From IMG/VR virus record IMGVR_UViG_3300005546_000003, positions 9,617 to 73,616 of that record: a stretch of DNA of 64,000 nucleotides; one strand, given 5' to 3'. The translations under genes were made by a program, and so were the position numbers. Under the pieces are notes generated by a model. It saw only the letters and a program-made list of their open reading frames with translations. It searched no databases and was not told the DNA's origin. Shown here piece after piece: positions 1,862 through 30,657 of this stretch; within the stretch, counting starts at the first letter, position 1; every line of letters begins with the position of its first letter. The stretch comes from a virus. Taxonomy: Duplodnaviria; Caudoviricetes.

Positions 1862-2183
1862 AATAGAACTGCTCCCGCGCTACAGGGTCTCTCAAATTGG
1901 CCTCATAGAGCTTGAGCAAGCCTTCCAGCCTGTCTCCAGTTGGTAAACTGCCCTCACGGGCCAACCAACCGTAAACAGACCTACCTGAGCACCCTAACTG
2001 GCGGGCAAAAATCTCTGGACTCAGCCCTAAGCTCTCGTAAACTACCTTCACAAAATCCAAACACCAAGCTCGACGCTCTTTATTTAGATATTGAGGGTCA
2101 AAAATAGCCTTGATTTGCCTAGTTTCGGGCCAATTAGCTAGCTTGGGCAGGCTCTGGGCTGGATTTGGGGGTCTCTTGGGCAT
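1845..2183 (-). CDS. XRE/Cro-like helix-turn-helix protein
   Basis: LSPEIFARQLGCSGRSVYGWLAREGSLP fits an HTH pattern. Confidence 0.55.
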   Translation of the reverse strand: MPKRPPNPAQSLPKLANWPETRQIKAIFDPQYLNKERRAWCLDFVKVVYESLGLSPEIFARQLGCSGRSVYGWLAREGSLPTGDRLEGLLKLYEANLRDPVAREQFYYDQAS

Positions 2184-2622
2184 CTTTTGGTCTAAAAATC
2201 ACTATCATACTAGGAAATGGAGCTGAACTAGGAGCACCTACGAACTTTAGTCTGCCTCGAATGAACCTGATTTCCCCATATGGGAGACAAAAATCATGGA
2301 ACCACTTGGTATCAGTGCGAGCCGGGAGGAGACAAACTGTTGGGGCTCCGTTTTGGCTCTCATTGTAAGCTTTTTCTACCCATTTGCCAATTTCTCTCCC
2401 ATATGGGGGGTTGAGCCAAACATACGAATCCTCTGGCATCAGCCCCCAAGCCTTCTCTAGTGCCCCCTCGCTGTAGTAATTGGCAAGCTTGTGGTTCTGC
2501 TCATTTGCAGCAGCATCTAGCTCAAAGTGAAACTCCCTGTCGAGCTCATCCCAGAGCTCCTGTGGAGTCTCCCAATCATCTCGATTGGAGCTGAACATGG
2601 CTTTTTGGGTTGCTGGGGTCAT
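2134..2622 (-). CDS. phage DNA N6-adenine methyltransferase (small phage Dam-like family)
   Basis: DDWETPQ, FELDAAA, VWLNPPYG, LLPARTDTKWFH, IRFIRGRLKF, APFPS motifs. Confidence 0.9.
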   Translation of the reverse strand: MTPATQKAMFSSNRDDWETPQELWDELDREFHFELDAAANEQNHKLANYYSEGALEKAWGLMPEDSYVWLNPPYGREIGKWVEKAYNESQNGAPTVCLLPARTDTKWFHDFCLPYGEIRFIRGRLKFVGAPSSAPFPSMIVIFRPKDAQETPKSSPEPAQAS

Positions 2623-2633
2623 GATATAAAAGT

Positions 2634-2727
2634 TTGTCTAAGGAACCAGCAAACTGAGGCATTTTACCTATACCCCCGAAGGGGCTTCGAGTCGAACGAA
2701 GTATCTCAGTTCTTCACCATTAGACAA
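2634..2727 (-). ncRNA. Y-RNA-like ncRNA (Y5), remote from Ro60
   Basis: TTGTCTAA/TTAGACAA terminal stem; TGGTGAAG...GATACTTC...GTTCC consensus shared with 9919-10642 elements; internal T-arm CTTCG-TTCGACT-CGAAG. Confidence 0.75.
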
Positions 2728-2801
2728 GAGGTCAAGTCAGCAGAAGCTAGTAGCCCTTTGGAACGCTTTCTGCTCGTTACCGGCTGCACGACTCTATAAA
2801 T

Positions 2802-3008
2802 TTAAGCAAATCCAGCCAAAAACTTAATCAAAACCAGCACCGCGATTACAATAACAACCGCGATGGCATATTTCTGAAACGGCTCTGGCGCAAAGGTGAT
2901 AATGAGCCAATAAAGCAGCGAAAGCACTATTAGAAATATTAGTACTGGGATTATCAGCGAGGTCAAGCCAGCCATGCTGGAGCCTGCTAGAAGGGTTAAG
3001 AGTAACAT
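2802..3008 (-). CDS. small membrane protein (2-3 TM)
   Basis: 68 aa, almost entirely hydrophobic. Confidence 0.65.
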   Translation of the reverse strand: MLLLTLLAGSSMAGLTSLIIPVLIFLIVLSLLYWLIITFAPEPFQKYAIAVVIVIAVLVLIKFLAGFA

Positions 3009-3014
3009 TTTGGG

Positions 3015-3176
3015 TTATTTTCCTCGTTTGTGTTTATTGGCCTCAATAGCCCTTAGTTGAGCCTCGGCTTTTTCTTTGCTTTGGGGCTTTTTGCTAAAGG
3101 TCTTGTTGGAGTTCTCTTTCTTGACCTTGTAGCCCCCTGGAACTTTTACTACGGTTGCAGTTGAAGTATGATTCAT
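3015..3176 (-). CDS. small basic protein (53 aa; not in ORF track)
   Basis: MNHTSTATVVKVPGGYKVKK...AEAQLRAIEANKHKRGK; SD GAGGAG upstream, directly behind promoter 3213-3241. Confidence 0.65.
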   Translation of the reverse strand: MNHTSTATVVKVPGGYKVKKENSNKTFSKKPQSKEKAEAQLRAIEANKHKRGK

Positions 3177-3212
3177 TTCTCTCCTCTACAGGCGATTGCC
3201 AGTCAAGGATGG

Positions 3213-3241
3213 ACTATATCACCTTTTTTTCGCAATGTCAA
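3213..3241 (-). promoter_or_regulatory. sigma70-type promoter
   Basis: TTGACA-17-TATAGT with extended -10 TG. Confidence 0.75.
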
Positions 3242-3256
3242 CTGCAAAGATGAGCT

Positions 3257-4225
3257 TTAGTCCCCTACTCGCTGTGCAATAAGTTTACAATACTCTGGAT
3301 TGAGCTCTATTAAGATGGAGTTTCGTTCTAGTTGCTTAGCTACCACCCCAACCGTCCCAGAACCTGCAAAAGGGTCTAATACAGAATCCCCTTGATTGCT
3401 TCCAGCTAGAATGCAGGGCGCTACTAAATTCTCAGGAAATGTGGCAAAATGAGCCCCCTTGTATGGTTTGGTTGGAATTGTCCAAACAGTTCTAGCATTT
3501 CTACCCCGCTCCTCAAATCCACCCACTACTAATCTGTCCTTATTGTCCCCCCGGGCTTTGACGCTATGATATGGTAAATTGGCCTTATAAGGAGCTTTCT
3601 GCTCATATACACGGCCAGCCCGTAAACGCTGCCGGTATCGTGCATCGCTAGATGGAGAATATGGCTCAAATTGTTGATTAAATAGGTACTTTGGGCTTTT
3701 TGTTAGCAAAAACACGTATTCATGAGCCATTGTAAACCGATCTCTTACTGAACTTGGCATCACATTAGGTTTGTGCCAAATAATGTCATTCCGCAGGTAC
3801 CATCCATCAGCTTGCAGAGCTAGGGCTACCCGCCAGGGAATGCCAACTAAGTCTTTTGGTTTCAGCGTGTTGTGATGTGGAATCCTGATGGCTTGTCGGT
3901 TAACCCCAAAATTAGCTCCTTTATTGGTATTTTGCTTCTGACTCAATTCATAAGTGCCGCCAGAACCTTTTCTGGAGCCAAAGTAGCTATCCCCAAGATT
4001 TAGCCACACAGTGCCAGAATCAGTAAGTTTCTCACCAATAGCCGCAAACAGCTCTACCAAACGCTCAACATATACTTCTGGTGTTTCCTCGTGCCCAATC
4101 TGACCGTTCACGCCATAATCCCGCAGTCCCCAATATGGAGGGCTGGTTATACAGCACTGAACCGATAAGTTGGGAATTTTGGAGACTTCTGCTATTGCAT
4201 CCCCGCAAATAATAGTGGTTGTCAT
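3257..4225 (-). CDS. site-specific DNA methyltransferase, beta class (N4-C/N6-A)
   Basis: ITSPPYWGLRDY near N-terminus, DPFAGSGT near C-terminus; start moved to MTTTIICGD (ATG 4225), downstream of promoter. Confidence 0.9.
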   Translation of the reverse strand: MTTTIICGDAIAEVSKIPNLSVQCCITSPPYWGLRDYGVNGQIGHEETPEVYVERLVELFAAIGEKLTDSGTVWLNLGDSYFGSRKGSGGTYELSQKQNTNKGANFGVNRQAIRIPHHNTLKPKDLVGIPWRVALALQADGWYLRNDIIWHKPNVMPSSVRDRFTMAHEYVFLLTKSPKYLFNQQFEPYSPSSDARYRQRLRAGRVYEQKAPYKANLPYHSVKARGDNKDRLVVGGFEERGRNARTVWTIPTKPYKGAHFATFPENLVAPCILAGSNQGDSVLDPFAGSGTVGVVAKQLERNSILIELNPEYCKLIAQRVGD

Positions 4226-4234
4226 TTGATGGTC

Positions 4235-4264
4235 ACAATACCACGAACCCCTTATTTTTGTCAA
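4235..4264 (-). promoter_or_regulatory. sigma70-type promoter, near-leaderless for the methyltransferase
   Basis: TTGACA-18-TATTGT with TG; ATG 10 nt after -10; no SD. Confidence 0.6.
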
Positions 4265-4745
4265 ATTCACAAAAAAAAATATCCCCCAAGTCCGGTAACT
4301 TTACCACACCCCCGTGTGCGCCCCCGCGACAACTAGAGCTACTATGAGACTATGAGCGCCCAGGCAGGTGAGCCCCCGAGAGCTAAGGCCTTTAGATGGA
4401 GTAGTTAAGTCTAGTGTCGGGGGCTCAGCCCCACTCCCCCAAACCTACGTGGATGGGTGTATGGTGTATTACACCTATGTACTGATTCAGTACAGTCTGT
4501 ATCTCAATCTCAGTCTCTCTATTTGTGCGACTACTCATATACCTAATGTAAAGCTTTAACTATTTATCAACAACTTATGGAATACAATATAGAGTATACT
4601 ATATTTAAGTATATACAAGATGTAGAAAGGTGTTACTAAAAGTGACACTTCGAGGGGTGTATTACTGTCTCAAAAGCATACATGCACCGAGGTTAGGTGT
4701 AGTGGAGTTGTGTTGGGGAAACAGGTCTTGGGTGGTCAATTTGAC

Positions 4746-9502: not shown

Positions 9503-9880
9503 ATGGGCAGCTTAATCGGTTGGACTACTTATGTTGTTGGAATAATAATCATCATGACCTTTGCTGTTCATCAGTATCAAGAGGATGGGGATGAGGAAAG
9601 GATTGCATTTGGAGTATTCTGTGGCATATTTTGGCCTCTCATCCTAGTTTTCTGTGTATTGGTAGGGGCCGCAGCTGTGCCATTCTATTTCCTGCCCAAA
9701 GGACTATTAGCACTTCCGGGGGCCATTAGAGGAATCAGGAAATGGCACCAGGATAGGAATAGGAAAAGGGGCAAAAATCTTGTATTAAAGAAGCCAGCTG
9801 AACCCAGCAAAGGAGATTGGACTAGTGGGGAATCTGTGAGCGCGGTGGAGCCTGGGAGGTGGATGCAAACTTCAGATTAG
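9503..9880 (+). CDS. membrane protein (2-3 TM)
   Basis: SD GGAGG; hydrophobic segments, GIFWPL motif. Confidence 0.65.
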   Translation: MGSLIGWTTYVVGIIIIMTFAVHQYQEDGDEERIAFGVFCGIFWPLILVFCVLVGAAAVPFYFLPKGLLALPGAIRGIRKWHQDRNRKRGKNLVLKKPAEPSKGDWTSGESVSAVEPGRWMQTSD

Positions 9881-9918
9881 CCCTCAGCCCCGGCGGGTTG
9901 AGAGTTATTCTAATGTTT

Positions 9919-9985
9919 GGCCAGTAGTGAAGAGCTGGGATACTTCAATTGGATGAAAAACTCCTAGCTTGTTTGTTCTCTGGCC
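9919..9985 (+). ncRNA. Y-RNA-like ncRNA (Y1, minimal)
   Basis: GGCCAG/CTGGCC stem; TAGTGAAG-stem-GATACTTC...GTTT-GTTCT; upstream of Ro60. Confidence 0.75.
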
Positions 9986-9990
9986 TTTGA

Positions 9991-10072
9991 TTACGTTGGG
10001 CGGCTAGTGGGAGCGCCGTCTAACCAGAGGAGGCACGGGGCTCTACCCACTCACCTACCGACCTCCTCGTAT
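9991..10072 (+). ncRNA. two-hairpin element with loop-loop complementarity
   Basis: TTGGGCGGC/GCCGTCTAA and GAGGAGG/CCTCCTC hairpins; loop AGTGGG complementary to CCCACT. Confidence 0.4.
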
Positions 10073-10079
10073 GAATTAA

Positions 10080-10236
10080 AGCAGAATGGCGTAGCATAGG
10101 GATACTTCGACTCTAATCGGGAGGTCGCAGGTTTAAGTCCTGCCTCCAGTCTTACGGCTGGAGTAGCTCAGTTGATAGAGCGCCTGACTGAAAGCCTTGT
10201 GCGATTGAGCCCCATTGGGCTCTAGTTCCTTCTGCT
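10080..10236 (+). ncRNA. YrlA-like Y RNA with circularly permuted tRNA-like domain (Y2)
   Basis: AGCAGAA/TTCTGCT stem, GATACTTC, T-arm GCAGG-TTTAAGT-CCTGC, acceptor CTCCAGTC/GGCTGGAG closed by TTAC loop, D-arm GCTC-AGTTGATA-GAGC, CCTGA/TCGGG stem. Confidence 0.85.
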
Positions 10237-10245
10237 AGTTTGAGA

Positions 10246-10315
10246 CTTGAAAATGTTGCGTGGGTTGAGGGACTTCCCCCACTCTAGCTCCTCCGAGAGC
10301 TGAAACGTTTTCAAG
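10246..10315 (+). ncRNA. structured RNA-like hairpin (not Y consensus)
   Basis: 12-bp closing stem CTTGAAAATGTT/AACGTTTTCAAG. Confidence 0.35.
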
Positions 10316-10327
10316 GCTGAGAATCTT

Positions 10328-10438
10328 GGTAGCATAGCGTAGTTGGGGGATACTTCTTCTGCAAAAATGGCCTCTAAAGCCATTAGAAGACCGAGAGCAA
10401 GTCTCTCAGTCATGCTCCTAGCGATTGTTCTTGCTGCC
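10328..10438 (+). ncRNA. Y-RNA-like ncRNA (Y3)
   Basis: GGTAGCA/TGCTGCC stem; TAGCGTAG-stem-GATACTTC...GATT-GTTCT. Confidence 0.75.
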
Positions 10439-10445
10439 TTTTAAG

Positions 10446-10563
10446 TTTGCGCGGTCATTGAGGGCGGTAGCCTTTGAGCACACGGTCTCTGACTAGCGAG
10501 CAGGCGTAATAGCTTGATCTAGCAGTATGACGAGAGACGCTGAGCGACCTGAAGCCGCGCAAA
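10446..10563 (+). ncRNA. multi-stem structured RNA-like element (not Y consensus)
   Basis: TTTGCGCGG/CCGCGCAAA closing stem; inner GTCTC/GAGAC and CTAG/CTAG pairings. Confidence 0.4.
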
Positions 10564-10568
10564 TGATT

Positions 10569-10642
10569 TTGAGCAATGGTGAAGATTGGGATTCCTTCTA
10601 CTGTTAATAGACAATGAGCCCAGTCGTTTGTTCCTTGCTCAA
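10569..10642 (+). ncRNA. Y-RNA-like ncRNA (Y4)
   Basis: TTGAGCAA/TTGCTCAA stem; TGGTGAAG-stem-GATTCCTTC...GTTT-GTTCC; immediately before Ro60. Confidence 0.75.
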
Positions 10643-10669
10643 CTAACTTGATGAAAGAAGGCTAAAACT

Positions 10670-12031
10670 GTGGCGAAAACTAACTCTAGCTCCAAGCGAG
10701 CACCAATATTTACGTATGAAGGCGCAAGAGCGGCTCATGCAAACCCAGTCCAGCAGCTGCGCAGGCTGACTATGGCGCATATGCTTTGGGAGGACCAGTT
10801 TTATGTGGATGGCAAGAGCTCAGCTGAGCTGCTTGCGCAGGCTGTCAAGGATTGTAAACCAGCTGATGTGCTGGAGATAGCCATTGAAGCGCGAGAGAAA
10901 CAACACTTGCGTCACGTTCCGTTATTTCTAGTGCGCGAGGTTGCGCGGGATAGCTCTAAGCTGAAGGACAAAGGGCTGGTAGCTGAAACGCTCGGGCGGG
11001 TAATTCAGCGAGCCGACGAACTGGCTGAGTTTCTGTCTATCTATTGGAAAGACAAGCGGCAGCCATTGAGTGCGCAGGTGAAGAAAGGGCTAGCTATGGC
11101 TTTCACTAAGTTTGGTGCCTATCAGCTGGCTAAGTACAACCGAGACAATGCGGTTAAGTTGCGAGATGTGCTGTTTCTGTGTCATGCCAAGCCAAGAGAT
11201 AAGGAACAAGCTGGAGTGTGGGCCAAGCTGGTTGAAGGAACCCTTGAGCCCCCGGATACCTGGGAAGTTGCGCTGAGCGCTATATCCAAAGACAACAAGG
11301 CTTCCCGACGAGAAGTATGGACTCGACTACTGGCGGGGGAGAAGCTTGGAGGGCTAGCCTTCCTACGCAATCTCCGTAATATGCGTGAGGATGAAATGTC
11401 TGATGCTTATATTGCGGGAGCTTTCGAGCAAGTTAACTTCAACCGAGTCCTGCCATTTAGGTTTGTAGCAGCTGCTATACACAACCCCACGTTGGAGCCA
11501 GCCATTGAAGTAGCTATGCTCAGGGCATGTGAGAGCTTGCCCCGGCTGGCTGGTAAGACCGCGTTGGTGGTTGATAACTCGGGCTCGATGTATCATGCTA
11601 AAATCAGTGCCAAGAGCGAGCTTGAGCGCATTGACGCGGCGTGTGCGCTGGCTATTATGGCTCGGGAGGTTTGCGAGGATATTGTGGTGCTGAGCTATAG
11701 CACCAAGCCAAGCATAGTTCCAGCTCGTCGGGGATTCGCGCTGCGGGATGCTATTAAAGCTGCTTGCACTCCAAATAGTACCAACACACAGGACGCCATT
11801 TTTGCGGCGGCTGAGCAAGGATACGATAGGATCATCGTCATCACAGATGAGCAAAGCCACCAAAGGATTAGCAACCCCCTGGTAGCTACGAGTGCTTACA
11901 TTATTAATGTGGCAGCCTATCGCAATGGCATTGGCTATGGCCAGGGATTCGTCACGGTGGATGGCTGGAGTGAGAATACTCTAGCATTCATTGGTCAGCT
12001 TGAGGAGGGAGAGAGTGGCAGCGGCGAATGA
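10670..12031 (+). CDS. Ro60/TROVE-domain RNA-binding protein with C-terminal vWA domain
   Basis: TYEG...QLRR...LWEDQFY, LRHVPL, RADEL, YQLAKY, CHAKP, PDTWEVALS, LRNLRN, VLPFRF; vWA VDNSGSM, VITDEQ. Confidence 0.92.
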   Translation: MAKTNSSSKRAPIFTYEGARAAHANPVQQLRRLTMAHMLWEDQFYVDGKSSAELLAQAVKDCKPADVLEIAIEAREKQHLRHVPLFLVREVARDSSKLKDKGLVAETLGRVIQRADELAEFLSIYWKDKRQPLSAQVKKGLAMAFTKFGAYQLAKYNRDNAVKLRDVLFLCHAKPRDKEQAGVWAKLVEGTLEPPDTWEVALSAISKDNKASRREVWTRLLAGEKLGGLAFLRNLRNMREDEMSDAYIAGAFEQVNFNRVLPFRFVAAAIHNPTLEPAIEVAMLRACESLPRLAGKTALVVDNSGSMYHAKISAKSELERIDAACALAIMAREVCEDIVVLSYSTKPSIVPARRGFALRDAIKAACTPNSTNTQDAIFAAAEQGYDRIIVITDEQSHQRISNPLVATSAYIINVAAYRNGIGYGQGFVTVDGWSENTLAFIGQLEEGESGSGE

Positions 12032-12480: not shown

Positions 12481-12858
12481 ATGAGCAGCACAAAAACAGC
12501 AACGGATGATCCAAAGCTAATCCGCAAAGCGTGGTTACGGGCTCTAACTAACGACCTCAAGGTTCTCAAAGGCTGGGACAGGAAGAAATACAAACGCTTG
12601 GCTAAGAGCATTGAGGCTTTTCTTGGTGGTCATATGAATAACGATGGCCAGGTTCTTGCGCTTATTGCTGGAACCATTCAGCTGCCCCAGGATACCAGAA
12701 CTATCCACAACATCAGGGCATCCATCTTGGCTATGTGGCGAGATTTGGATATGGTTACCAGCGAAGAGATTCGGAAACTAGAGAACGATAGTACGGAGAC
12801 CCAAAATGACAGCGATGATGATGACCAAAACCCATTCGCTCTCGCACCAGAGCTCTGA
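12481..12858 (+). CDS. hypothetical protein
   Basis: 125 aa, packed. Confidence 0.6.
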   Translation: MSSTKTATDDPKLIRKAWLRALTNDLKVLKGWDRKKYKRLAKSIEAFLGGHMNNDGQVLALIAGTIQLPQDTRTIHNIRASILAMWRDLDMVTSEEIRKLENDSTETQNDSDDDDQNPFALAPEL

Positions 12859-13279
12859 ACCGGAGAATGAGCCTAGGCTGGCTCTAGTGTTTGTTTATGG
12901 GAGCTTAAAGCGGGGGTATTGGAACTACGATAGGTACCTAGCTGCCACAACTGGCTCAGAGTTTCTGGGTGAAGCCAGCACGGAGCCGATTTATAGGCTT
13001 TTTACTAATGGGGCTTTTCCTTATCTGGTGAAGGATGAGGCCAATGGCTATGCGGTGCAAGGGGAGATTTTTGCAGTTGACGAGCCAACACTCATGCGGC
13101 TCGACAGGCTCGAAGGAGTGCCGGGGCATTATAGGAGAGAAAGGGCTGTTCTCCAGCGGTTTGAGCTAGAGGAGGCGTTGTACAAGGATCTGGAGCAGAT
13201 TGAGCCTTTCGTTTACGTCTACTACGGAGATACAAGGAGATTACATGAAGTCAAAAGCGGCAACTGGAAAGGCGAATAG
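12806..13279 (+). CDS. gamma-glutamylcyclotransferase (GGCT/AIG2-like)
   Basis: VFVYGSLKRG, FPYLV, VQGEIF, LDRLEG, YRRE, VYVY. Confidence 0.88.
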   Translation: MTAMMMTKTHSLSHQSSEPENEPRLALVFVYGSLKRGYWNYDRYLAATTGSEFLGEASTEPIYRLFTNGAFPYLVKDEANGYAVQGEIFAVDEPTLMRLDRLEGVPGHYRRERAVLQRFELEEALYKDLEQIEPFVYVYYGDTRRLHEVKSGNWKGE

Positions 13280-14447
13280 GGGTAAGCTAACGGCTACAGC
13301 TGCTCAGCAGCTTGGGATGGGAATTAGACGGGCTGATGGGACTGAGGGGGTGCTTGTCTACCCAAGTACCCTACAGTCTCTAAGGGGGGGCTATACGTCC
13401 TATCTCTACCAGTCAGGCGATGTGGAAATAGATCCCCCAGCTGGGGCGCAGCCAACCCATGGTGGCTATCACTACAGCACTGGGAGCGATCCTGAGGTCT
13501 TTGCGCTTGATGCTAATGGGATTGTGATTCCGGCTTGGAAGTATTTGAAGTCTAAGAAAGAAAATCCCAGCGTCTTCTATGATGGCTTCCAAGCTGAGTT
13601 AACTACCCTAGCTGGTAGCTGTCATGATGGCCAGTGTGGGGCTATTCGAGCTGGGCTATTAGCTATTCGCAAAGCCGCTAGGGCTTTTGACCCTAAAGCT
13701 ACCCTGAGCTCCAAGTGCGTAGTTGAGATTCCTCGGTCCATGATGCTTGAAGCCAGGGATGAACACGCAATGCTAGGCTGCGCGCCGAGCTTGAATATCT
13801 ACGGTGATGTGCCGGAGCTGAACATTGAAGCTCCAAGGGACCTTGGTATCAGATTTGCTGGTTGCCATATTCACCAAGGAACCAAAGTGAGGTATCAGCC
13901 TGCTGTGGAGCGGGTGATTAAGATGCTGGATAACATTGTGGGCGTCGGACTCACGAGCTTGCTGGATGGGCTGGAAGACCCAAGACGCAGGCGGTTTTAT
14001 GGCAAAGCCGGAGAGTATAGGCTTCCGGCTCATGGGTTTGAGTATCGAGTGCCAAGCTCTGCTGTGCTTTGTTCACCTACGATTGTTTACCTAACGCTTG
14101 ACTTAGTGCGAGCGGTTGCACATTATGGTCTAGTGGGAGGCTCCTGGAAAGCTACCGAGGCTGAGACTCGGGAAGCGATTGACCAGCTAGATGTGAAGTT
14201 GGCCAGGAAGTTGCTCAAGAGGAATAAGGACACCCTGACTGTGTTTCTGGAGAGGCTTTATGGATATTATAGCACTGAGGCAGGGGCCTTTGCTTATGAA
14301 GCCATTATGGGGGGAGCAAAGGAGCTAATTGAGACTGAAATGGAGAAGACTTGGAATTTTAGTGCAGCACCTTTCTCTGGCATGAGAGTCCGAGATGTTG
14401 GGCCAGCTATCATGAGCTCACGAGCTAGAGCAGCCAAGGCTGCTTAA
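13245..14447 (+). CDS. phiEco32-like COOH-NH2 ligase (type 2)
   Basis: GSDPEVF, DGFQAEL, GCAP, RFAGCHIH, YGKAGEYRLPAHGFEYRVPSS; SD AAGGAG before ATG 13245. Confidence 0.85.
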   Translation: MKSKAATGKANRGKLTATAAQQLGMGIRRADGTEGVLVYPSTLQSLRGGYTSYLYQSGDVEIDPPAGAQPTHGGYHYSTGSDPEVFALDANGIVIPAWKYLKSKKENPSVFYDGFQAELTTLAGSCHDGQCGAIRAGLLAIRKAARAFDPKATLSSKCVVEIPRSMMLEARDEHAMLGCAPSLNIYGDVPELNIEAPRDLGIRFAGCHIHQGTKVRYQPAVERVIKMLDNIVGVGLTSLLDGLEDPRRRRFYGKAGEYRLPAHGFEYRVPSSAVLCSPTIVYLTLDLVRAVAHYGLVGGSWKATEAETREAIDQLDVKLARKLLKRNKDTLTVFLERLYGYYSTEAGAFAYEAIMGGAKELIETEMEKTWNFSAAPFSGMRVRDVGPAIMSSRARAAKAA

Positions 14448-14575
14448 CTTAAAATCTCTCCACGCGCCTGATGGGTAGCAGCTTAGGAGCCTCTGGGGCT
14501 TCGGCTTTGGACTGCAACTAAGATTAAGGCACGGACGAAGGTGTTTAATCAACTGGAATCGGGCCTGTAGACTAC

Positions 14576-14917
14576 TTGGGGGTAGAAGTGAGACATTTGC
14601 TCCTTCGAGCGTGGAGAGATTTTAGATTAAACCTAACGAGACAGGAGATGGTTATGCTAGCATTAAGCGGCCAGGCTGCTACAATGGCTCAAGCCAATGG
14701 TGGGATACCGAAGATTAAAGCTCTTAAGGAGTGCCCAAAGTGCGATACTGGGAGCTTTGATAGGGAGCTTGAATGGTGTGTTGGGTGTGAGGAGCTTGAG
14801 GCAGTTGAGCACCTGCATGTGAGCTGCAAAAAGTGTGGCTACGATCGGCTAGCTATGTGCCATGATTGGGAACCACCTAAGAACGAAGTTGGCGGAGTGG
14901 AGCCAGCAGCTGGGTAA
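14576..14917 (+). CDS. zinc-ribbon hypothetical protein
   Basis: CPKC, CVGC, CKKC; true start may be downstream. Confidence 0.55.
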   Translation: MGVEVRHLLLRAWRDFRLNLTRQEMVMLALSGQAATMAQANGGIPKIKALKECPKCDTGSFDRELEWCVGCEELEAVEHLHVSCKKCGYDRLAMCHDWEPPKNEVGGVEPAAG

Positions 14918-14923
14918 AAAAAA

Positions 14924-16084
14924 ATGAAATACATGTTCTCCGACAACTGGGGGGAAGTCGATCCCTTTGCATCCATGAAACCAAAAGCTAAGGAATACTC
15001 GCCGAGTGAGGCCGAGTATCGCAGACTAACAAGGTTTGCCACTACTGGCACCGAGAGCGGAGTGCTCAGGAGCCCGATTGATGTTAGACTAGAGCTGCTA
15101 CCAACGGTTGCTAAAGTAGCCAAGCAAAATATGGATTGGCTCTGGCGGAATTTAATGGGGCGGTGCTCTAATTGGAAGGCCAAATCGTTGCTACTGGCTT
15201 TGAAGCTCAGTCAAAAAGAATCTAGGAGTGAGCGCACCAAGAGCGCCCGACAGGTGGCTGATCAGGTGCGCAACACTAGCCAAATGGAGCAACTGATAGC
15301 TCAAACGCAAGAGCTTGGTGGAAGCTTGGGCAACGTTAGGGGAATGCTACAGGAATGGCTTAACCGGGCTAAAGTGTGGGAGCTATTGAGGAGCAAGGAA
15401 CGGGTGGCAGAATGGATAGCCCTAGCTCATCCAAAGCCTAGGGATAAAGAGCGAGAAGAGGTTTTCGGGTTTATTCTTGGCCGCGAGGGAGCGCAGGTTA
15501 CTACTCCGGTTCTGGTAGTTTATCAGAAAGTCGAGAGCCCAGACACTCCATTTAGGCTCCGGATTAGCCTAGCTAAGCAATATGGAGTGCCACTAGGACT
15601 GCTTGGAGATGGATTGGCCAAAAGCCCTAAACTTTGGGCTCCAGCTGAAGAGCTGGGGAGAAGGCATTATAGTGTTCTCTCAATAGCTGATGCTAGAAGG
15701 CTGGAAAGTTTAGGAGTCGATGTGGCTCCTCTGGTGAGCGGATTTATACACCAAGTTGCTGGCTGGGACAAGCTCCAAGTTGGCTGGGGGCTGATCAGGT
15801 ACACCTTTTCTAGGCTCTTGCTGATGGGGAATAAAGAGCATCCACTATGGGAGACCCTAGCTAAATGGGTTGACCTAGTAGCCAGCGAGCGCAAGGGAAA
15901 GCTTGGGGCTAGTAGCCTTGGAATTGAGCTTGGGGGAGCTAGTAAGTTCCCGAGCACGATGCCTTGGGTTAGATATGAGCCAACTGCTGAAATGCCGGAG
16001 CAACAAAACGTGCTGGTGGTTGAAGGGGAGTTTACTGAGGAGATTTGCAAGGCTATTTTTGCTTGGCTGGGGGGGAATGGGTAA
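14924..16084 (+). CDS. hypothetical protein, possible divergent TROVE-like helical protein
   Basis: EWIALAHPKPRDKEREEVFGFI resembles Ro60 DVLFLCHAKPRDKEQAGVWAKL; no vWA motif. Confidence 0.5.
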   Translation: MKYMFSDNWGEVDPFASMKPKAKEYSPSEAEYRRLTRFATTGTESGVLRSPIDVRLELLPTVAKVAKQNMDWLWRNLMGRCSNWKAKSLLLALKLSQKESRSERTKSARQVADQVRNTSQMEQLIAQTQELGGSLGNVRGMLQEWLNRAKVWELLRSKERVAEWIALAHPKPRDKEREEVFGFILGREGAQVTTPVLVVYQKVESPDTPFRLRISLAKQYGVPLGLLGDGLAKSPKLWAPAEELGRRHYSVLSIADARRLESLGVDVAPLVSGFIHQVAGWDKLQVGWGLIRYTFSRLLLMGNKEHPLWETLAKWVDLVASERKGKLGASSLGIELGGASKFPSTMPWVRYEPTAEMPEQQNVLVVEGEFTEEICKAIFAWLGGNG

Positions 16085-16353
16085 TGGAGCTGATAGATGG
16101 TGAAAATAGAGTCCGGGTCAGTGCGTTGCATGATTTTTTCCTAGGGGGCCGGGATATAATGGAAGCCAGCTTCATGGGAATGAGGATTCATTTTCATGGG
16201 GTCACCATAATGCCAGAACAGACAGAGTGGCTAGTAGCTTGCATTAATGGTAGATGTACTTATCAGTATAGGGGCCAAAGTGAGCAAGAGAGACCAGAAG
16301 CGAGCGGGCAAGCTATTGAGGCAGGCTCAGGCGAGCTTAGAGCTGGCAGCTAA
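16084..16353 (+). CDS. hypothetical protein
   Basis: TAATG overlap with upstream stop. Confidence 0.5.
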   Translation: MELIDGENRVRVSALHDFFLGGRDIMEASFMGMRIHFHGVTIMPEQTEWLVACINGRCTYQYRGQSEQERPEASGQAIEAGSGELRAGS

Positions 16354-16474
16354 AGCGCTAAGGGGGGATATGAATCTGACGGCTCAACGGGCTGAAAAGG
16401 TAGCTCTAGCGTTGGTGGTGGTGCTTGAGCATCCGGTGGGGGAGCTGGAGAGATTGGTGGAGCTTAATAAATGA
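16280..16474 (+). CDS. hypothetical coiled-coil protein
   Basis: GTG start; helical heptad-like sequence. Confidence 0.45.
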   Translation: MSKRDQKRAGKLLRQAQASLELAAKALRGDMNLTAQRAEKVALALVVVLEHPVGELERLVELNK

Positions 16475-16653
16475 AGCAAAAAGAATTTGAAAAACTCCAA
16501 ATTGGGGATCGGGTGACTAATATTGCTGCTCTTAATGGAGTTATAGTTACCCACAGACTGGAAGATTCTAGAGGTCATGTTACCTTCTTAGGCATCCTGC
16601 CGGTAAAGATTGATCGGGCAGCTGGGTGGGCGAAGATTAAGAGAAAGAAATGA
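16471..16653 (+). CDS. hypothetical protein
   Basis: ATGA overlaps at both ends. Confidence 0.55.
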   Translation: MKQKEFEKLQIGDRVTNIAALNGVIVTHRLEDSRGHVTFLGILPVKIDRAAGWAKIKRKK

Positions 16654-17636
16654 GCAACGAAAAAGCACAGCCAGTCCCAGCGGAGCCAAAGCGTCACGCA
16701 TTCGCCAAGCCAACATCATCCGAGCCGCTTGGGTGCATTCAATGCGGACTCCCTGCGTCAGCAGAAGTACATTGGGCACCGTGGATTTGTGGTGACTGCG
16801 GGAAGCCAAGAGCCATGACGATAACAGCGACCGCCGCCGACTTTTGCTGTCGCTACTGCTTTTCAACTAAAGGTATCGCTCCAGTACATCAGCCAGCAGG
16901 CGAGCTACTACCGCCCGTTCCCGAGAAGCCGCCGCCCGGCGGGAGAAACGGACACCAACACCAATGGGGATACGTTGACGTTGATCCGCGCTTTGGGCAT
17001 TCGTACTTTCGCTGTGCTGACTGCCTGTTAGCGGTGTTGCCGCCATCGTCTAAGCCAGCAGCCGAGCATGAGGGAGGGCCGCGAGAGGAAGTGGAACCAT
17101 GTCCGTTTTGCATAACAAAAGGTAAGCCGTTCGCGTGGGAATCCCGCGATCCCAAAGCCAATAATCGCATCGTTTGGTGCATCGCCTGCGAAGTGTGCGC
17201 CTGTGAGGGGCCGGAAGCGGACACGGAAGGTCAAGCAGTTAAGCTATGGAATACCCGCGCCCGTCCTTCTCCAGCCGCCACCCTTTCACCTTCAGAAGCA
17301 GCACGGCGAGCGGCAGAGCGGATCGGCATGTTTACGATGGACGATCTCAGTAACGACGAGATCGCGTCCATTATCTCTGCGGAACTAGATAAAGAGACCG
17401 AGCTTTACAACGAAGACGGCAGTTATACGCCCGTAGCGCAAAACATCTGGAATCATTCGGCTGACGTGGCGCGACGGGATGCGTTTGATGAAGCGATTGC
17501 GGCAGTACCACCGTTAATTCCCAAGTACGACGAGTTTGATAATTTTCACCCCAGCGGCAAGGACATTGATCCTCGATACGCGTCAGGATGGAACGCAGCT
17601 ATTGCCGCTTTAGAAGCTGCAAAGGAGAGCAAGTGA
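16650..17636 (+). CDS. multi-zinc-ribbon protein with Lar/Ral-like restriction-alleviation motif
   Basis: PCPFC...VWCIAC...QAVKLWNTRA plus CIQC, CGDC, CRYC, CADC. Confidence 0.6.
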   Translation: MSNEKAQPVPAEPKRHAFAKPTSSEPLGCIQCGLPASAEVHWAPWICGDCGKPRAMTITATAADFCCRYCFSTKGIAPVHQPAGELLPPVPEKPPPGGRNGHQHQWGYVDVDPRFGHSYFRCADCLLAVLPPSSKPAAEHEGGPREEVEPCPFCITKGKPFAWESRDPKANNRIVWCIACEVCACEGPEADTEGQAVKLWNTRARPSPAATLSPSEAARRAAERIGMFTMDDLSNDEIASIISAELDKETELYNEDGSYTPVAQNIWNHSADVARRDAFDEAIAAVPPLIPKYDEFDNFHPSGKDIDPRYASGWNAAIAALEAAKESK

Positions 17637-17845
17637 CACCAGAAGAACATAGAGACGCCGCCACTGATGCGATGAATCGCGGGCTTGGCAAAGTAGAAGT
17701 TGCAACCTATCACGCGACGATGGGCGTCTTAGAAGCCCTCTTGCAAATGGATACCTGCGGACACGGCACACGCGGATTCTGTAAGGACTGTTTTTGGCTT
17801 GAGTTTAGACAATGGCCGATTATGGTAAAGGAGCAAACCAAGTGA
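17633..17845 (+). CDS. hypothetical protein
   Basis: SD AAGGAG, GTGA overlap; CGHG...CKDC. Confidence 0.55.
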   Translation: MTPEEHRDAATDAMNRGLGKVEVATYHATMGVLEALLQMDTCGHGTRGFCKDCFWLEFRQWPIMVKEQTK

Positions 17846-18168
17846 GAGGCACCAATAAAAAAGCAACAGTTATTGACATAAAGCTTGAGTCTATTATTGT
17901 GGACTTTAGTGAGCAAGAGCAAGTTAAGGCTATCATGGATGGGGTAGTTAAGGAGCTTACTAAGGCTTTTGCTGCTAGGATAGAAGAGCTAACAGATAAG
18001 CCGACTCAGATTACAGGTCATGTAAAGTGCTACGAAGCGTTGCTGTGGGATGAGATACTGGATTTGACTGGTGGAGCTATGCGGGAGGTTGATAAGCCAG
18101 AGGAAAGTGCCGCTGAGGCTGAGCGCTGGCCTAATGTTATTGGGGGAGGGGATGAGACGGAGGAATAA
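17812..18168 (+). CDS. hypothetical protein
   Basis: 118 aa, acidic C-terminus. Confidence 0.55.
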   Translation: MADYGKGANQVRGTNKKATVIDIKLESIIVDFSEQEQVKAIMDGVVKELTKAFAARIEELTDKPTQITGHVKCYEALLWDEILDLTGGAMREVDKPEESAAEAERWPNVIGGGDETEE

Positions 18169-18171
18169 AAA

Positions 18172-18387
18172 ATGGTTGCGATAACTGGACAAGAAGCTAA
18201 CTTACTACTCTACCTCTTCGATGCTACCTACAGAGTCGATAATCAAGGGAAGGTCGATAAACTGATGACCAACTTTAGTGTGGGCTTCCCCAGTGGGCAT
18301 CCAGTCCAACGTCCTAGTCAGTTTGAACTACAAGCCCTGAGAGATAAGCTATTTAATGGACATGAGCATCCAGAGGAGGGAAGTTGA
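18172..18387 (+). CDS. hypothetical protein
   Basis: SD GGAGG. Confidence 0.6.
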   Translation: MVAITGQEANLLLYLFDATYRVDNQGKVDKLMTNFSVGFPSGHPVQRPSQFELQALRDKLFNGHEHPEEGS

Positions 18388-19172
18388 TCTATCTTTACAA
18401 ACGCAATACCGGAATGGGCAGGCTGGCTAGGAAGTTGGGAATTAGTGTAGCAATTAGGTCTCAAACTGGAATGGCTGGGTTTGCAGCCGTTGGCCGAAGA
18501 TACATTACTGATCCAGGCGTTAATTGGGGCTGCGGGAGCCAATTTGTTGACTTTATTGGGAATGGAAAGCTACTTAATGGCAATCTTAACCTAGCTCTCA
18601 GCAAACGTCGGTCTTTTGAAGCCTTCGAGAAAGCTGGCCTGCCGTATCCACGATGGAGCAATAACTTCGCTGAGTTGCGCAAACAAATAGGCCCAGACCG
18701 AGACATCCTACACCGAGTAGACGGCCAGCATGGGGGGAGCGGGATTGATATTATTCGGGCCGGAACTAACCCAGTCACCCTGACGCCTCAAGAGCGCTCC
18801 TTTTTTGTCGAGCGCCTTAGCTATCAGCGAGAAGCTAGAGTTCACGTCTGGTGCGATGAGATTATCGCCACTCAAGTCAAGCTATTGGAGCCGGGAAATG
18901 GGAATCCGATTCATAGCTTTGATGTTGGGAATGCCAGCTTTACGACTAAGCTGGAGGGCAGGCTTGAGCCAGCCCTAGCTACCAAAGCTGGAGAGCTTGC
19001 TAGGGCTGCTGTTAAGGCGCTGGGGTTGGACTTTGGAGCAGTTGACCTGATGCTAACCAAGCGCAGCAAGCTTTATGTACTGGAGGTCAACACAGCCCCC
19101 GGCATTCGGAGCAAGAGCATCGAAGATGCTTATAGTTATGGGCTAGGGAGATTGAAGAAGGAGAGAAAATGA
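18384..19172 (+). CDS. ATP-grasp peptide ligase (RimK/YheC-D-like)
   Basis: NWG, SKRRSF, GSGI, REARVHV, LGLDFGAVD, VLEVNTAPG. Confidence 0.88.
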   Translation: MIYLYKRNTGMGRLARKLGISVAIRSQTGMAGFAAVGRRYITDPGVNWGCGSQFVDFIGNGKLLNGNLNLALSKRRSFEAFEKAGLPYPRWSNNFAELRKQIGPDRDILHRVDGQHGGSGIDIIRAGTNPVTLTPQERSFFVERLSYQREARVHVWCDEIIATQVKLLEPGNGNPIHSFDVGNASFTTKLEGRLEPALATKAGELARAAVKALGLDFGAVDLMLTKRSKLYVLEVNTAPGIRSKSIEDAYSYGLGRLKKERK

Positions 19173-19426
19173 CCAAAATAAAGATTTATGGGGACGATGA
19201 GCCTAAACCAGAAAAGATTATCAACTTGAGATTGCGTCGGCTGTTTGCAGGATCAGGCAGGTCAGTTGTGTCTCTTGATGTAGTCTCTGAGTCAGGCGAA
19301 TTAATAAGCAGCATCTTGGAAGTGTCGGTAGATGGGGTTCGCTTGACTAGGTATGGAGCTGCTTCACGGAGTGGGCTTCCAATGGACCCCGCTAATCCGA
19401 ATCAAGTTAAGTTAATTGCTAGTTAG
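19169..19426 (+). CDS. hypothetical protein
   Basis: SD AAGGAG, ATGA overlap. Confidence 0.6.
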   Translation: MTKIKIYGDDEPKPEKIINLRLRRLFAGSGRSVVSLDVVSESGELISSILEVSVDGVRLTRYGAASRSGLPMDPANPNQVKLIAS

Positions 19427-19437
19427 GGAGTCAAGCT

Positions 19438-20373
19438 TTGCACGAACTAGAAGGTCCAAACTGTAAACTCTGCCACGGAGACCCTATGAAGTTCCTAGTA
19501 CCGCTTCGGGCCTGGGAATCCAAGCTGGCCGGAGAAATGGAAAGTCTCCGCTTGGTAAGCTTGGAGCTCGAAGCCACCAGTTCTGGCACCAATGCTAAAC
19601 CCTACCCTGACGCTAAGTGGGGCAGCAGCAGGATGCCCAGCTTGACTCCAGCTGTTTATGCTTGCTTCAAGAAATGGGGAGCTACCATAGGGCGAGACCG
19701 AATTGGCCCAGCAGGGTTTGAAATCTGCACAGCTCCAGCTCAGGGCTTAAAGTTCATCCGGCAAATGAAGGATTGGGAAGAAGCATTTGAAGCTGATAAG
19801 ATTTATGTTACCAAGGAGCATGGAGCCCATGTTCACACCGATGCTAGGGACTTTTGCATGGCCGAGCTAAGGAACCTAATGATGCTGTTTCGTAGCATTC
19901 AGCCTGCGTTGTTTAGGATGGTTCCAAAAGCTAGAAGGCTGCCTTATAGCGAAGGTGGGCCTTGTGGGAGGATAAAGTATGAGCCAGAGCTGGTAGAGAA
20001 GCTTGTGGCAGCGGATACGCCAAAAAAGATAGCGAATTTCATGGCTGCGAGGTTTTTTGATAGCGGTTATACTTCCGTAAATCCTCTTGCCTACGACAGA
20101 CATGTTGGGTGCAACATAGCCTTTAGCTTCCGAGCCCACCGGACAGTGGAGTGGAGGCTCCCTCCTGGCACGGTTAGCTCAACTGATATGATTGGCTGGG
20201 CCAGAATGTTTGCCAAGATAATGGATTATGCCAAGCAAATGGAACCGTCTGATGCCGAGGCTTTAGTGAAGCGCGGGTGGACTGGTAAGCGCTCTATAAC
20301 CTGGCTCTGGGAAGTGCTGAATTCGGAGCGCTGCGTTGAGTTTATTGAACAAAAACTAAAGGAGAGTAAGTGA
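19438..20373 (+). CDS. putative amidoligase (COOH-NH2 ligase superfamily)
   Basis: SLELE, GFEICTAP, GAHVHTD, VNP, TVEWR. Confidence 0.8.
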   Translation: MHELEGPNCKLCHGDPMKFLVPLRAWESKLAGEMESLRLVSLELEATSSGTNAKPYPDAKWGSSRMPSLTPAVYACFKKWGATIGRDRIGPAGFEICTAPAQGLKFIRQMKDWEEAFEADKIYVTKEHGAHVHTDARDFCMAELRNLMMLFRSIQPALFRMVPKARRLPYSEGGPCGRIKYEPELVEKLVAADTPKKIANFMAARFFDSGYTSVNPLAYDRHVGCNIAFSFRAHRTVEWRLPPGTVSSTDMIGWARMFAKIMDYAKQMEPSDAEALVKRGWTGKRSITWLWEVLNSERCVEFIEQKLKESK

Positions 20374-30648: not shown

Positions 30649-30657
30649 CCTAGAGCT

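What the first reader, a model, noticed from the sequence alone, without database searches (positions are those of the whole stretch)
9919..12031. Phage Ro60 with an array of modular Y RNAs and interleaved non-Y RNAs
Seen: four elements share stem-TRGYGWAG-stem-GATACTTC (GATTCCTTC in Y4)-variable-stem-GNTK-GTTCY-stem, each with a different variable module. Three other stem-closed elements sit between them, and U-rich linkers separate them up to the Ro60 start. Known: bacterial Ro60 binds Y RNAs that tether effectors such as PNPase, and some phages carry Ro60/YrlA. Inference: one scaffold protein displays a panel of RNA modules, i.e. a phage RNP toolkit for RNA decay control or anti-defence.
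Basis: partly seen in the sequence, partly recalled or inferred. Interest (0 to 1): 0.85.

Follow-up and report, generated by a model that had tools for sequence, protein, structure and literature searches.

The report
Phage Ro60 with five Y RNAs
A complete 73.6-kb phage genome encodes a Ro60 RNA-binding ring protein and five small Y RNAs that share one conserved Ro60-binding "handle" but each display a different piece of tRNA, an arrangement I found beside Ro60 genes in about 70 other phage and bacterial loci although the Rfam Y-RNA model misses it.

Summary
An intact Ro60 gene (TROVE + vWA/MIDAS) lies at 10670-12031. Four elements just upstream (Y1-Y4) share one scaffold. A fifth copy (Y5) lies at 2634-2727 on the other strand.

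A covariance model built from this scaffold finds 155 elements in 50 phage or viral Ro60 loci. All are on the Ro60 strand except this phage's Y5, with 1-6 per locus (median 3). It finds 86 more in 21 bacterial loci; in all 17 where a Ro60 gene lies within the fetched 8 kb, the array is adjacent to it. All 16 scaffold pairs covary. The 5' box UGGYGWAG is a variant of the published Ro60-binding motif GNCGAAN0-1G.

The modules are tRNA parts:
- Y2: a permuted tRNA elbow.
- Y3 and Y4: anticodon-loop mimics (CUCUAAA, CUGUUAA), a loop type about 38-fold enriched in the family.
- Y5: a T arm.
- Y1: minimal.

The three interleaved elements match no Y, tRNA or Rfam model and have no homologues, so their status as RNAs is unproven. 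Function (tethering or decoy, anti-defence) is inference. Expression and binding could not be tested.

Phage Ro60 with two Y RNAs is published (phiLo). Earlier notes of this scan report similar multi-RNA arrays on other DNA. I score it a new variant of a known kind.

The parts
9883..9902 (+). GC-rich hairpin just after the stop of ORF 9503-9880, with a weak U tract. It could be a leaky terminator or a processing or stability hairpin at the 5' edge of the array.
   Evidence: Terminator-like site. No sigma-70-like promoter was found between it and Ro60.
9919..9985 (+). Y1: minimal Y RNA (67 nt). It has the scaffold plus one short hairpin, UUCA-AUUGGA-UGAA.
   Evidence: R1 57.9 bits, E 9e-13. R2 56.7 bits. 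Fold z -3.75.
9987..10079 (+). Interleaved element A (structured core about 9995-10062). It is not a Y RNA, and its status as an RNA of its own is unproven.
   Evidence: Inverted repeat of 17 nt at 71%. Fold z -1.58, with 17 of 200 shuffles as good. No hit with the covariance models, Rfam or ARAGORN, and no homologues.
10080..10236 (+). Y2: YrlA-type Y RNA with a circularly permuted tRNA-like module. Parts: first hairpin with loop CUCUAA, AGGUC, T arm 10127-10143, closed acceptor-like stem 10144-10163, UA, and D arm 10166-10181. An extra 16-nt hairpin (10207-10222) is inserted in the 3' strand of the handle.
   Evidence: Rfam YrlA 34 bits, E 2.3e-5, below the gathering score of 69. R2 44.2 bits over 10080-10236. 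It is the only one of 35 T+D-arm elements listed (33 with the standard AGCUC D stem) with a UUU T loop together with a GA D loop. This is a G19:C56 to A19:U56 double change at the tRNA elbow pair.
10237..10327 (+). Interleaved element B (core 10243-10318). A 12-15 bp closing stem encloses two hairpins. It is not a Y RNA, and it may be a decayed Y copy or a spacer.
   Evidence: Inverted repeat of 15 nt at 87%. Fold z -2.31. No model hit and no homologues. Weak sense similarity to the 3' end of Y2, z 2.2.
10328..10438 (+). Y3: Y RNA with a long first hairpin whose tip (10357-10373) is a 5-bp stem with the 7-nt loop CUCUAAA, an anticodon-loop mimic with 'anticodon' CUA. A second hairpin follows.
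   Evidence: R1 54.6 bits. R2 46.3 bits. Fold z -2.97. Loop class.
10439..10568 (+). Interleaved element C (core 10445-10564). A perfect 9-bp closing stem, extendable to 11 bp, encloses a branched interior. It is not a Y RNA.
   Evidence: (z -2.06). No model hit and no homologues. Its 19/21 complementarity to the 3' part of Y3 is not significant after multiple testing.
10569..10642 (+). Y4: short Y RNA whose single module hairpin (10597-10611) is UCUA-CUGUUAA-UAGA. The loop is identical to a tRNA-Asn anticodon loop. Its box is AUUCCUUC instead of GAUACUUC.
   Evidence: R1 46.3 bits. R2 52.5 bits. CUGUUAA is the commonest first-hairpin loop in the family: 8 phage plus 4 bacterial elements.
10670..12031 (+). 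Ro60 (TROVE + vWA) gene. GTG start, with a Shine-Dalgarno-like AAGAAGG 8 nt upstream.
   Evidence: 8000 homologues at E<=1e-50, the nearest 64% identical.
2634..2727 (-). Y5: fifth Y RNA, unlinked and on the opposite strand, just upstream of a Dam methylase gene (2134-2622). Its first hairpin is a T-arm mimic, CUUCG-UUCGACU-CGAAG. A UUCG-capped hairpin follows.
   Evidence: R1 65.2 bits, E 1e-14. R2 53.5 bits. Pfam Dam. The whole genome has exactly five copies.

Best explanation
The region is a polycistronic Y-RNA array followed by the gene of its protein partner. Y1-Y4, and the unlinked Y5, are small non-coding RNAs. In each, the 5' and 3' ends pair into a two-helix handle: a basal stem, a bulged U, two G:C pairs, an internal loop YGWA / GNUUKUU, and an 8-bp upper stem. 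The handle carries a variant of the known Ro60-binding motif, and the phage Ro60 ring is inferred to bind it.

Above the handle, after the box GAUACUUC, each RNA displays a different tRNA-derived module:
- Y2: a whole permuted tRNA elbow.
- Y3 and Y4: anticodon stem-loop mimics (CUA, GUU).
- Y5: a T arm.
- Y1: almost nothing.

The RNAs are most likely cut out of a long rightward transcript at the AU-rich linkers, as happens for mycobacterial YrlA/YrlB and for Deinococcus Yrn2-tRNA-Yrn1. Each Ro60-Y RNP would then present its module to a different tRNA-recognising host or phage protein, either as a tether (as Y RNA tethers PNPase) or as a decoy.

Shown here: the anatomy, the family membership, the covariation and the linkage to Ro60. 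Inferred: Ro60 binding, processing, and what the modules recruit. The three interleaved elements are best treated as structured spacers or decayed copies until shown otherwise.
For: - Motif statistics.
- A covariance model from 15 elements finds 155 elements in 50 viral or phage Ro60 loci. All lie on the Ro60 strand except Y5, and most lie within 700 nt upstream. These include cultured Xanthomonas phage Tenjo (5), Brevundimonas phage Gurke (5) and Microcystis phage Mvi-JY20 (2).
- The second model finds 86 more in 21 bacterial genome loci. In 17 of these the 8-kb locus also holds a Ro60 gene 31-53% identical to this one, adjacent to the array.
- On 84 distinct sequences 92.4% of cells are paired, against 38-51% when the partner is slid. 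All 16 pairs have compensatory changes, and 0 of 500 shuffles reach the covariation score.
- UGGYGWAG corresponds to GNCGAAN0-1G, the proposed Ro60 contact of YrlA RNAs (PMC4201824). phiLo Yrl1 and Yrl2 have the same stem-bulge-stem plan and bind phage Ro60 in EMSA (PMC12135203).
- Y2 gives the only Rfam hit, to YrlA, and it carries the A19:U56 elbow covariation.
- CU-NNN-AA 7-nt loops: 15 in 153 elements, against 2 in 775 genomic controls and 1 in 765 shuffles. They sit at a fixed place, starting at position 26-30 of the element in 17 of 18 cases.
- A fold-independent search finds 25 of 153 such first hairpins in the phage set and 9 of 86 in the bacterial set.
- The linkers are AU-rich.
Against: No promoter or terminator defines separate RNAs, so the array could in principle act in cis within the Ro60 mRNA leader. 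Rfam YrlA scores Y2 far below its gathering score and does not see Y1, Y3, Y4 or Y5. The covariation alignment was fitted to the model's own structure, which favours it. In a global minimum-energy fold of the whole precursor, Y3 is disrupted by pairing with element C. The anticodon-mimic reading rests on predicted hairpins and a loop consensus, not on any assay.
Confidence: 0.8

Rival explanations
1. The elements are cis-acting leader structures of the Ro60 mRNA, for example autoregulatory Ro60 binding sites or stability elements, and not free-standing small RNAs.
For: Y4 ends 27 nt before the Ro60 start. No promoter-like or terminator-like site separates the array from the gene. Arrays lie directly upstream of Ro60 on the same strand in most loci.
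Against: Y5 is about 8 kb away on the opposite strand, upstream of a Dam gene. In L013 and in Microcystis phage Mvi-JY20 the elements lie downstream of Ro60. Arrays are interleaved with genuine tRNAs that must be excised: L014 has a tRNA-Lys between two Y elements. Bacterial Y RNAs are known to be processed from polycistronic precursors (PMC4201824).
Confidence: 0.1
2. The three interleaved elements A, B and C are functional non-coding RNAs of new classes, co-processed with the Y RNAs.
For: B and C have long closing stems flanked by AU-rich linkers, and few shuffles fold as well (5 and 2 of 200). Other arrays do interleave non-Y RNAs, namely tRNAs. Gaps of 90-130 nt are unusual in the family, where the median gap is 12 nt.
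Against: No match to the Y models even with filters off, to any Rfam family or to tRNA. No similar sequence in 60 related loci. Most long gaps in other arrays turn out to hold weak Y-like copies rather than a shared third class. Element A's fold is not better than shuffles. Apparent antisense matches to neighbouring Y RNAs are at chance after correction.
Confidence: 0.25
3. The elements are tRNA-derived repeats or pseudogenes that persist near tRNA and Ro60 genes without binding Ro60.
For: The modules are tRNA pieces. Some are annotated as tRNA in GenBank records: the 'tRNA-Ser' of Brevundimonas phage Gurke lies inside a Y element.
Against: The conserved part is the non-tRNA handle, which covaries at all 16 pairs and contains the published Ro60-binding motif. 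The handle is co-located with Ro60, on its strand, in every viral locus and in all 17 bacterial loci where a Ro60 gene lies within the fetched 8 kb.
Confidence: 0.04

Closest known systems
YrlA / YrlB Y RNAs with bacterial Ro60 (Rsr): Salmonella, Mycobacterium smegmatis (Rfam RF02553; Chen et al. 2014, PMC4201824; YrlA crystal structure, bioRxiv 10.1101/312249)
   Same: Encoded next to Ro60 on the same strand. A 5' motif of the GNCGAA(N)G type sits in a stem formed by the RNA's ends. One RNA per locus (Y2) carries a permuted tRNA-like domain with T arm, closed acceptor stem and D arm. More than one Y RNA per species, processed from one precursor. M. smegmatis YrlB also has a possible T arm.
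   Different: The Rfam model scores Y2 at 34 bits against a gathering score of 69, misses the other four, and reaches its gathering score in none of 16 related loci. The handle has an extra closing stem and its own boxes, GAUACUUC and CGNUUGUUCC. There are five RNAs rather than two. Salmonella YrlA 'lacks the anticodon loop', whereas here the first module hairpin often is an anticodon-loop mimic. Short non-tRNA members were said to have 'eluded bioinformatic discovery'.
Thermus phage phiLo Ro60 with Yrl1 and Yrl2 (PMC12135203; PDB 9KOP, 9L5Y)
   Same: A phage Ro60, homologous over its full length (E 1.3e-22), with Y-like RNAs directly upstream. Stem-bulge-stem plan with a CGAA-type motif. Binding to Ro60 and a ternary complex with host PNPase were shown in vitro.
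   Different: Two RNAs, not five. No tRNA-like or anticodon-like modules are described. There are no interleaved elements and no unlinked copy.
Deinococcus radiodurans Yrn2-tRNA(Asp)-Yrn1 polycistron and the Ro60-Y RNA-PNPase (RYPER) machine
   Same: Y RNAs are co-transcribed with another small RNA between them and are cut out of one precursor. The Y RNA module tethers an effector to Ro60.
   Different: The interleaved unit there is a real tRNA. Here A, B and C are not tRNAs. The effector for these modules is unknown.
Metazoan Y RNAs (human Y1, Y3, Y4, Y5)
   Same: A small family of RNAs shares a conserved bulged Ro60-binding stem and differs in the loop that recruits other proteins. The genes are clustered.
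   Different: No sequence homology was tested or claimed. The metazoan genes are separate Pol III genes, and their loops are not tRNA parts.

Membership tests
Ro60 / TROVE protein | TROVE (HEAT-repeat ring) domain | tested here: met
   Pfam PF05731 at 40.2 bits against a cut-off of 23. phrog_850 'RNA-binding protein' at 4e-43 over residues 11-445. Full-length match to phiLo Ro60 9KOP at E 1.3e-22.
Ro60 / TROVE protein | C-terminal vWA domain with MIDAS residues (DxSxS, T, D) | tested here: met
   VVDNSGSM, STNTQ and ITDEQS are present in the translation. Pfam vWA_Ro60 and VWA_2 hits fall below their cut-offs, at 20.5 and 20.8 bits.
Y RNA (Ro60 partner RNA) | The 5' and 3' ends pair into a stem that holds a conserved bulged helix or internal loop with the Ro60-binding motif | tested here: met
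   Folds. All 16 pairs of the two helices covary across 84 sequences. The box UGGYGWAG corresponds to GNCGAAN0-1G.
Y RNA (Ro60 partner RNA) | Encoded close to the Ro60 gene on the same strand | tested here: met
   Y1-Y4 lie 28-751 nt upstream on the + strand. Y5 does not meet this: it is about 8 kb away on the - strand.
Y RNA (Ro60 partner RNA) | Physically bound and stabilised by Ro60, and present as a discrete small RNA | not testable with these tools
No RNA-protein prediction tool is available.
YrlA (Rfam RF02553) | Reaches the curated gathering score of the family model | tested here: not met
   Y2 scores 34 bits against 69. Y1, Y3 and Y4 give no hit at E<=10, and Y5 gives none at gathering score. 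No YrlA hit at gathering score in 16 related loci.
YrlA (Rfam RF02553) | tRNA-like domain: T arm, closed acceptor-like stem, D arm, and elbow tertiary pairs | tested here: met
   Met for Y2 only. T arm 10127-10143, acceptor-like stem 10144-10163, D arm 10166-10181. The A19:U56 double change preserves the elbow pair. Y5 has a T arm only. Y1, Y3 and Y4 have none.
YrlA (Rfam RF02553) | 5' motif GNCGAAN0-1G | tested here: inconclusive
   The window's elements read GGCGUAG, AGUGAAG, AGCGUAG and GGUGAAG. This is the relaxed form RGYGWAG. Exact GGCGAAG occurs in relatives such as L003.
tRNA (for elements A, B, C) | Cloverleaf recognised by tRNA models | tested here: not met
   ARAGORN finds none. The Rfam tRNA model hits only inside Y2, at 19.3 bits.
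   There is only a 14-residue local match, LAHPKPRDKE against LCHAKPRDKE, at E 0.015. hhalign probability against a 23-sequence Ro60 profile is 2%. No Pfam TROVE hit, no PDB hit, no homologues. The AlphaFold model has pLDDT 37, too poor to search, and the Atlas search was uninformative.

The most novel reading that the evidence does not exclude
Ro60-associated Y RNAs form a programmable display system. A constant Ro60-binding handle presents interchangeable tRNA parts: elbow, T arm, or anticodon stem-loops whose middle triplet varies (GUU, CUA, UGU, GCA, UUU, CAU and others). Each Ro60-Y RNP would then capture, titrate or redirect a specific tRNA-recognising enzyme, such as an anticodon nuclease of a host defence system or a tRNA-modifying enzyme. 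This phage would carry a five-member panel for that purpose. Elements A-C would be further, still unclassified members of the same processed operon.
Probability: 0.2. Interest if true: 0.85.

Novelty: new variant of a known kind. Interest (0 to 1): 0.6.

Why it matters
Y RNAs are thought to work by tethering effectors to Ro60. Outside Deinococcus the effectors are unknown, and the second, short Y RNAs of bacteria have resisted computational discovery. This locus gave a handle-only model that recovers 1-6 Y RNAs per viral locus in 50 viral loci and up to 7 per locus in 21 bacterial loci.

The model shows that the variable modules are tRNA parts, including anticodon-loop mimics that the published YrlA description lacks. 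That turns 'what do Y RNA modules bind?' into a concrete test with defined small RNAs and candidate partners: tRNA-modifying enzymes, anticodon nucleases, RNase P/Z and PNPase. It also flags mis-annotated 'tRNA' genes in published phage genomes.

For phage biology, it suggests that Ro60 RNPs are a common multi-RNA accessory system. One published screen already links a phage Ro60-like protein to counter-defence (PMC11482910).

Tried and rejected
1. Antisense pairing between the interleaved elements and neighbouring Y RNAs. C against the 3' part of Y3 is 19/21 complementary, and A has 22 nt at 77% plus 8 perfect nt against the Y2 module. With dinucleotide-preserving shuffles, C-Y3 is reached in 36 of 3000 and A-Y2 in 152 of 2000. 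This is not significant over 12 comparisons, and the duplex energy is within shuffles. Rejected.

2. A/B/C as degenerate Y RNAs. There is no + strand hit with R1 or R2 with filters off. B has some Y-like strings (UGCGUGG, GGACUUCC, UAGCUCC), but this is not significant.

3. A/B/C as known RNAs. Rfam gives only noise, ceN69 at E 0.095.

4. Conservation of A/B/C. There are no close relatives to test. The best Ro60 in IMG/VR is 55% identical. P0003 (63%) was fetched as L050, but it has only two Y elements and a different neighbourhood.

6. Second TROVE paralogue at 14924-16084. Not supported.

7. Separate promoters in the spacers. None was found.

8. Genome-wide motif scan of GTDB genomes. The raw pattern is expected about 1000 times by chance in 596 Gb (my calculation), so the hits were re-scored with the covariance model. 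Only 21 of 80 loci were real, and in all 17 of those where Ro60 lay within the fetched 8 kb the array was adjacent to it.

9. The 22-bit R2 hit at 36563-36646, inside the DNA polymerase gene, is an artefact of its inclusion in the seed alignment. R1 gives it 14.6 bits at E 0.44.

10. The 2018 and 2020 reviews by Sim and Wolin are not held, so I cannot exclude that they mention larger arrays.
Full report
**Context.** The window is bases 9617-73616 of a 73,616-bp IMG/VR virus record with direct terminal repeats, rated 100% complete. Its genes are those of a tailed phage:
- DNA polymerase, exonuclease and a Sak4-like annealing protein
- internal virion proteins with a transglycosylase domain
- structural proteins

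The finding lies about 5 kb into the long rightward gene block.

**The protein.** ORF 10670-12031 has a GTG start with AAGAAGG 8 nt upstream. It is a Ro60:
- Pfam TROVE at 40.2 bits, above the cut-off of 23, with weaker vWA_Ro60 and VWA_2 hits.
- phrog_850 over nearly its whole length.
- A full-length match to the crystallised Thermus phage phiLo Ro60, 9KOP/9L5Y, at E 1.3e-22.
- MIDAS residues present.
- Thousands of homologues exist. The nearest are only 63-64% identical. Among cultured phages the best are Xanthomonas, Ralstonia, Brevundimonas, Caulobacter and Microcystis phages at 44-48%.

**The four elements.** Shuffles predict 0.09 matches. Each element folds with its ends paired, with z-scores of -2.0 to -3.75. 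The common plan is:
- a basal stem of 6-8 bp
- a bulged U
- two pairs, RG with CY
- an internal loop, YGWA opposite GNUUKUU
- an upper stem of 8 bp
- the box GAUACUUC
- a variable module
- the return strands

Y2 has an extra 16-nt hairpin inside the 3' strand of the handle.

**Comparative test.** I aligned 15 elements from the window and from IMG/VR loci that encode Ro60 relatives. From these I built covariance model R1 with only the two handle helices.
- R1 finds 155 elements at E<1e-3 in 50 viral or phage sources. There are 1-6 per locus, median 3. Apart from the window's Y5, every one is on the Ro60 strand, and most are packed directly upstream, with a median gap of 12 nt.
- Cultured phages are included: Xanthomonas phage Tenjo (5), Brevundimonas phage Gurke (5, one annotated as 'tRNA-Ser') and Microcystis phage Mvi-JY20 (2, downstream).
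- On the 84 distinct sequences of the model-fitted alignment, 92.4% of cells pair, against 38-51% for slid partners. All 16 pairs carry compensatory changes. That alignment leans towards the model's structure.
- The whole genome holds exactly five copies.
- A motif scan of GTDB genomes, re-scored with the second model R2, gave 86 further elements in 21 bacterial loci, in arrays of up to seven. In all 17 loci where a Ro60 gene lay within the fetched 8 kb, the array was adjacent to it.

So the array is not peculiar to this phage. It is the normal, largely unannotated company of this Ro60 clade.

**Relation to known Y RNAs.** Chen et al. 2014 defined YrlA by a 5' GNCGAAN0-1G motif, proposed as the Ro60 contact, and a tRNA-like domain. 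They found 355 candidates in 254 bacteria and 22 phages. They also noted that the second, short Y RNAs escaped computational discovery.
- The box UGGYGWAG is a relaxed form of that motif.
- Rfam's YrlA model sees only Y2, at 34 bits against a gathering score of 69. It reaches gathering score in none of 16 related loci.
- phiLo has two Yrl RNAs upstream of its Ro60. They have the same stem-bulge-stem plan and bind the protein in vitro, also together with host PNPase.

The kind is therefore known. The handle variant, the copy number and the module repertoire are not described in the literature I could reach.

**Modules.** Across the viral set:
- 35 elements carry T and D arms (the tRNA-like type, about 133-140 nt).
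- 24 carry a T arm only.
- 93 carry neither.

Y2 is the tRNA-like member. Its module runs: first hairpin, AGGUC, T arm, closed 7+1-bp acceptor stem, UA, D arm. Among the 35 T+D-arm elements listed (33 with the standard AGCUC D stem), Y2 alone has U at T-loop position 56 together with A at D-loop position 19. This double change keeps the elbow pair, which argues that the L-shape is under selection.

- Predicted 7-nt loops of the form CU-NNN-AA occur 15 times in 153 elements. Genomic control segments give 2 in 775 and shuffles give 1 in 765.
- In 17 of 18 cases the hairpin starts at position 26-30 of the element, so the UUC of the conserved box forms its 5' strand.
- A fold-independent search finds 25 such first hairpins in the viral set and 9 in the bacterial set. 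CUGUUAA, the tRNA-Asn loop, is the commonest in both, at 8 and 4.
- The flanks are fixed and the middle triplet varies, as in real anticodon loops.
- The published YrlA structure 'lacks the anticodon loop'.

In this window Y4 carries CUGUUAA. Y3 carries CUCUAAA on a 5-bp stem. Y2 has the related 6-nt CUCUAA. Y5 has a T-loop hairpin at the same place. Y1 has a 6-nt loop.

**The interleaved elements.** A, B and C have closing inverted repeats and AU-rich flanks. The evidence that they are RNAs of their own is thin.
- Folding z-scores are -1.6, -2.3 and -2.1.
- There is no match to either Y model with filters off, to Rfam or to tRNA.
- There is no similar sequence in 60 loci.
- Other arrays do interleave real tRNAs, for example tRNA-Lys between two Y elements in L014. 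This parallels the Deinococcus Yrn2-tRNA-Yrn1 precursor. However, most long gaps elsewhere hold weak Y-like copies.
- Apparent antisense matches to neighbouring Y RNAs do not survive correction.

I treat A-C as structured spacers or decayed copies, with about a one-in-four chance that they are functional RNAs.

**Mechanism.** The most likely mechanism is as follows. The array is transcribed with the surrounding operon, since no promoter or terminator lies inside it. It is cut at the AU-rich linkers, and each Y RNA is bound through its handle by the phage Ro60. The modules then offer tRNA surfaces to other proteins. Whether these act as tethers, as for PNPase, or as decoys is not known. One screen reports that a Ro60-like protein of phage Bas63 counters the ppl defence system. 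That makes an anti-defence role plausible, but it is untested here.

**Limits.**
- The closest genome relative could not be fetched.
- The claimed second TROVE paralogue at 14924-16084 was not supported.
- Earlier notes of this scan report similar Ro60-plus-array loci on many other genomes. My census was made independently and agrees with them.

Noticed in passing
window 30561-30642 (+), flanks 30550-30660: A tRNA-like element scores 39.9 bits with the Rfam tRNA model, but ARAGORN calls nothing. It has a 19-nt stretch where the 7-nt anticodon loop should be. Its acceptor stem is extended to about 19 bp by flanking complementary sequence, so no free CCA end is apparent. Fold z is -2.6.
   Followed up: partly
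window 12806-23719 (+): Directly downstream of Ro60 lies a run of peptide or amide-bond enzymes: a GGACT/gamma-glutamyl cyclotransferase-like protein, a phiEco32-type COOH-NH2 ligase, an ATP-grasp protein, two amidoligases and a glutamine amidotransferase-like protein. A Lar-like restriction-alleviation domain protein sits among them at 16650-17636.
   Followed up: partly
window 14924-16084 (+): This orphan 386-aa protein shares a 14-residue string (LAHPKPRDKEREEV) with the Ro60 HxKP region at the same distance from the N terminus. It shows no other detectable TROVE similarity and has no homologues in 5.8 billion proteins.
   Followed up: yes
L024 2266-2340 (Brevundimonas phage vB_BpoS-Gurke, ON529850.1): The annotated 'tRNA-Ser' next to the Ro60 gene lies inside a Y-RNA element (model hit 2267-2400). 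It is one of five in a row, so at least one published phage tRNA annotation is really the tRNA-like module of a Y RNA.
   Followed up: partly
L024 5842-6187: A permuted tmRNA (Rfam RF04321, 57.7 bits) lies about 2 kb downstream of the Ro60 gene of Brevundimonas phage Gurke.
   Followed up: no
L090 4175-5212 and L128 5921-6808 (Hyphomonadaceae genomes); L078 and L110 (Bradyrhizobium): Bacterial genomes carry the same handle in arrays of up to seven elements directly upstream of Ro60 genes about 50% identical to the phage's. I did not determine whether these loci are chromosomal or prophage.
   Followed up: partly
window 2134-4270 (-): Y5 sits in the leader of a Dam methylase gene. A second DNA methylase (N6_N4_Mtase, 3257-4270) lies upstream in the same leftward block.
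   Followed up: no
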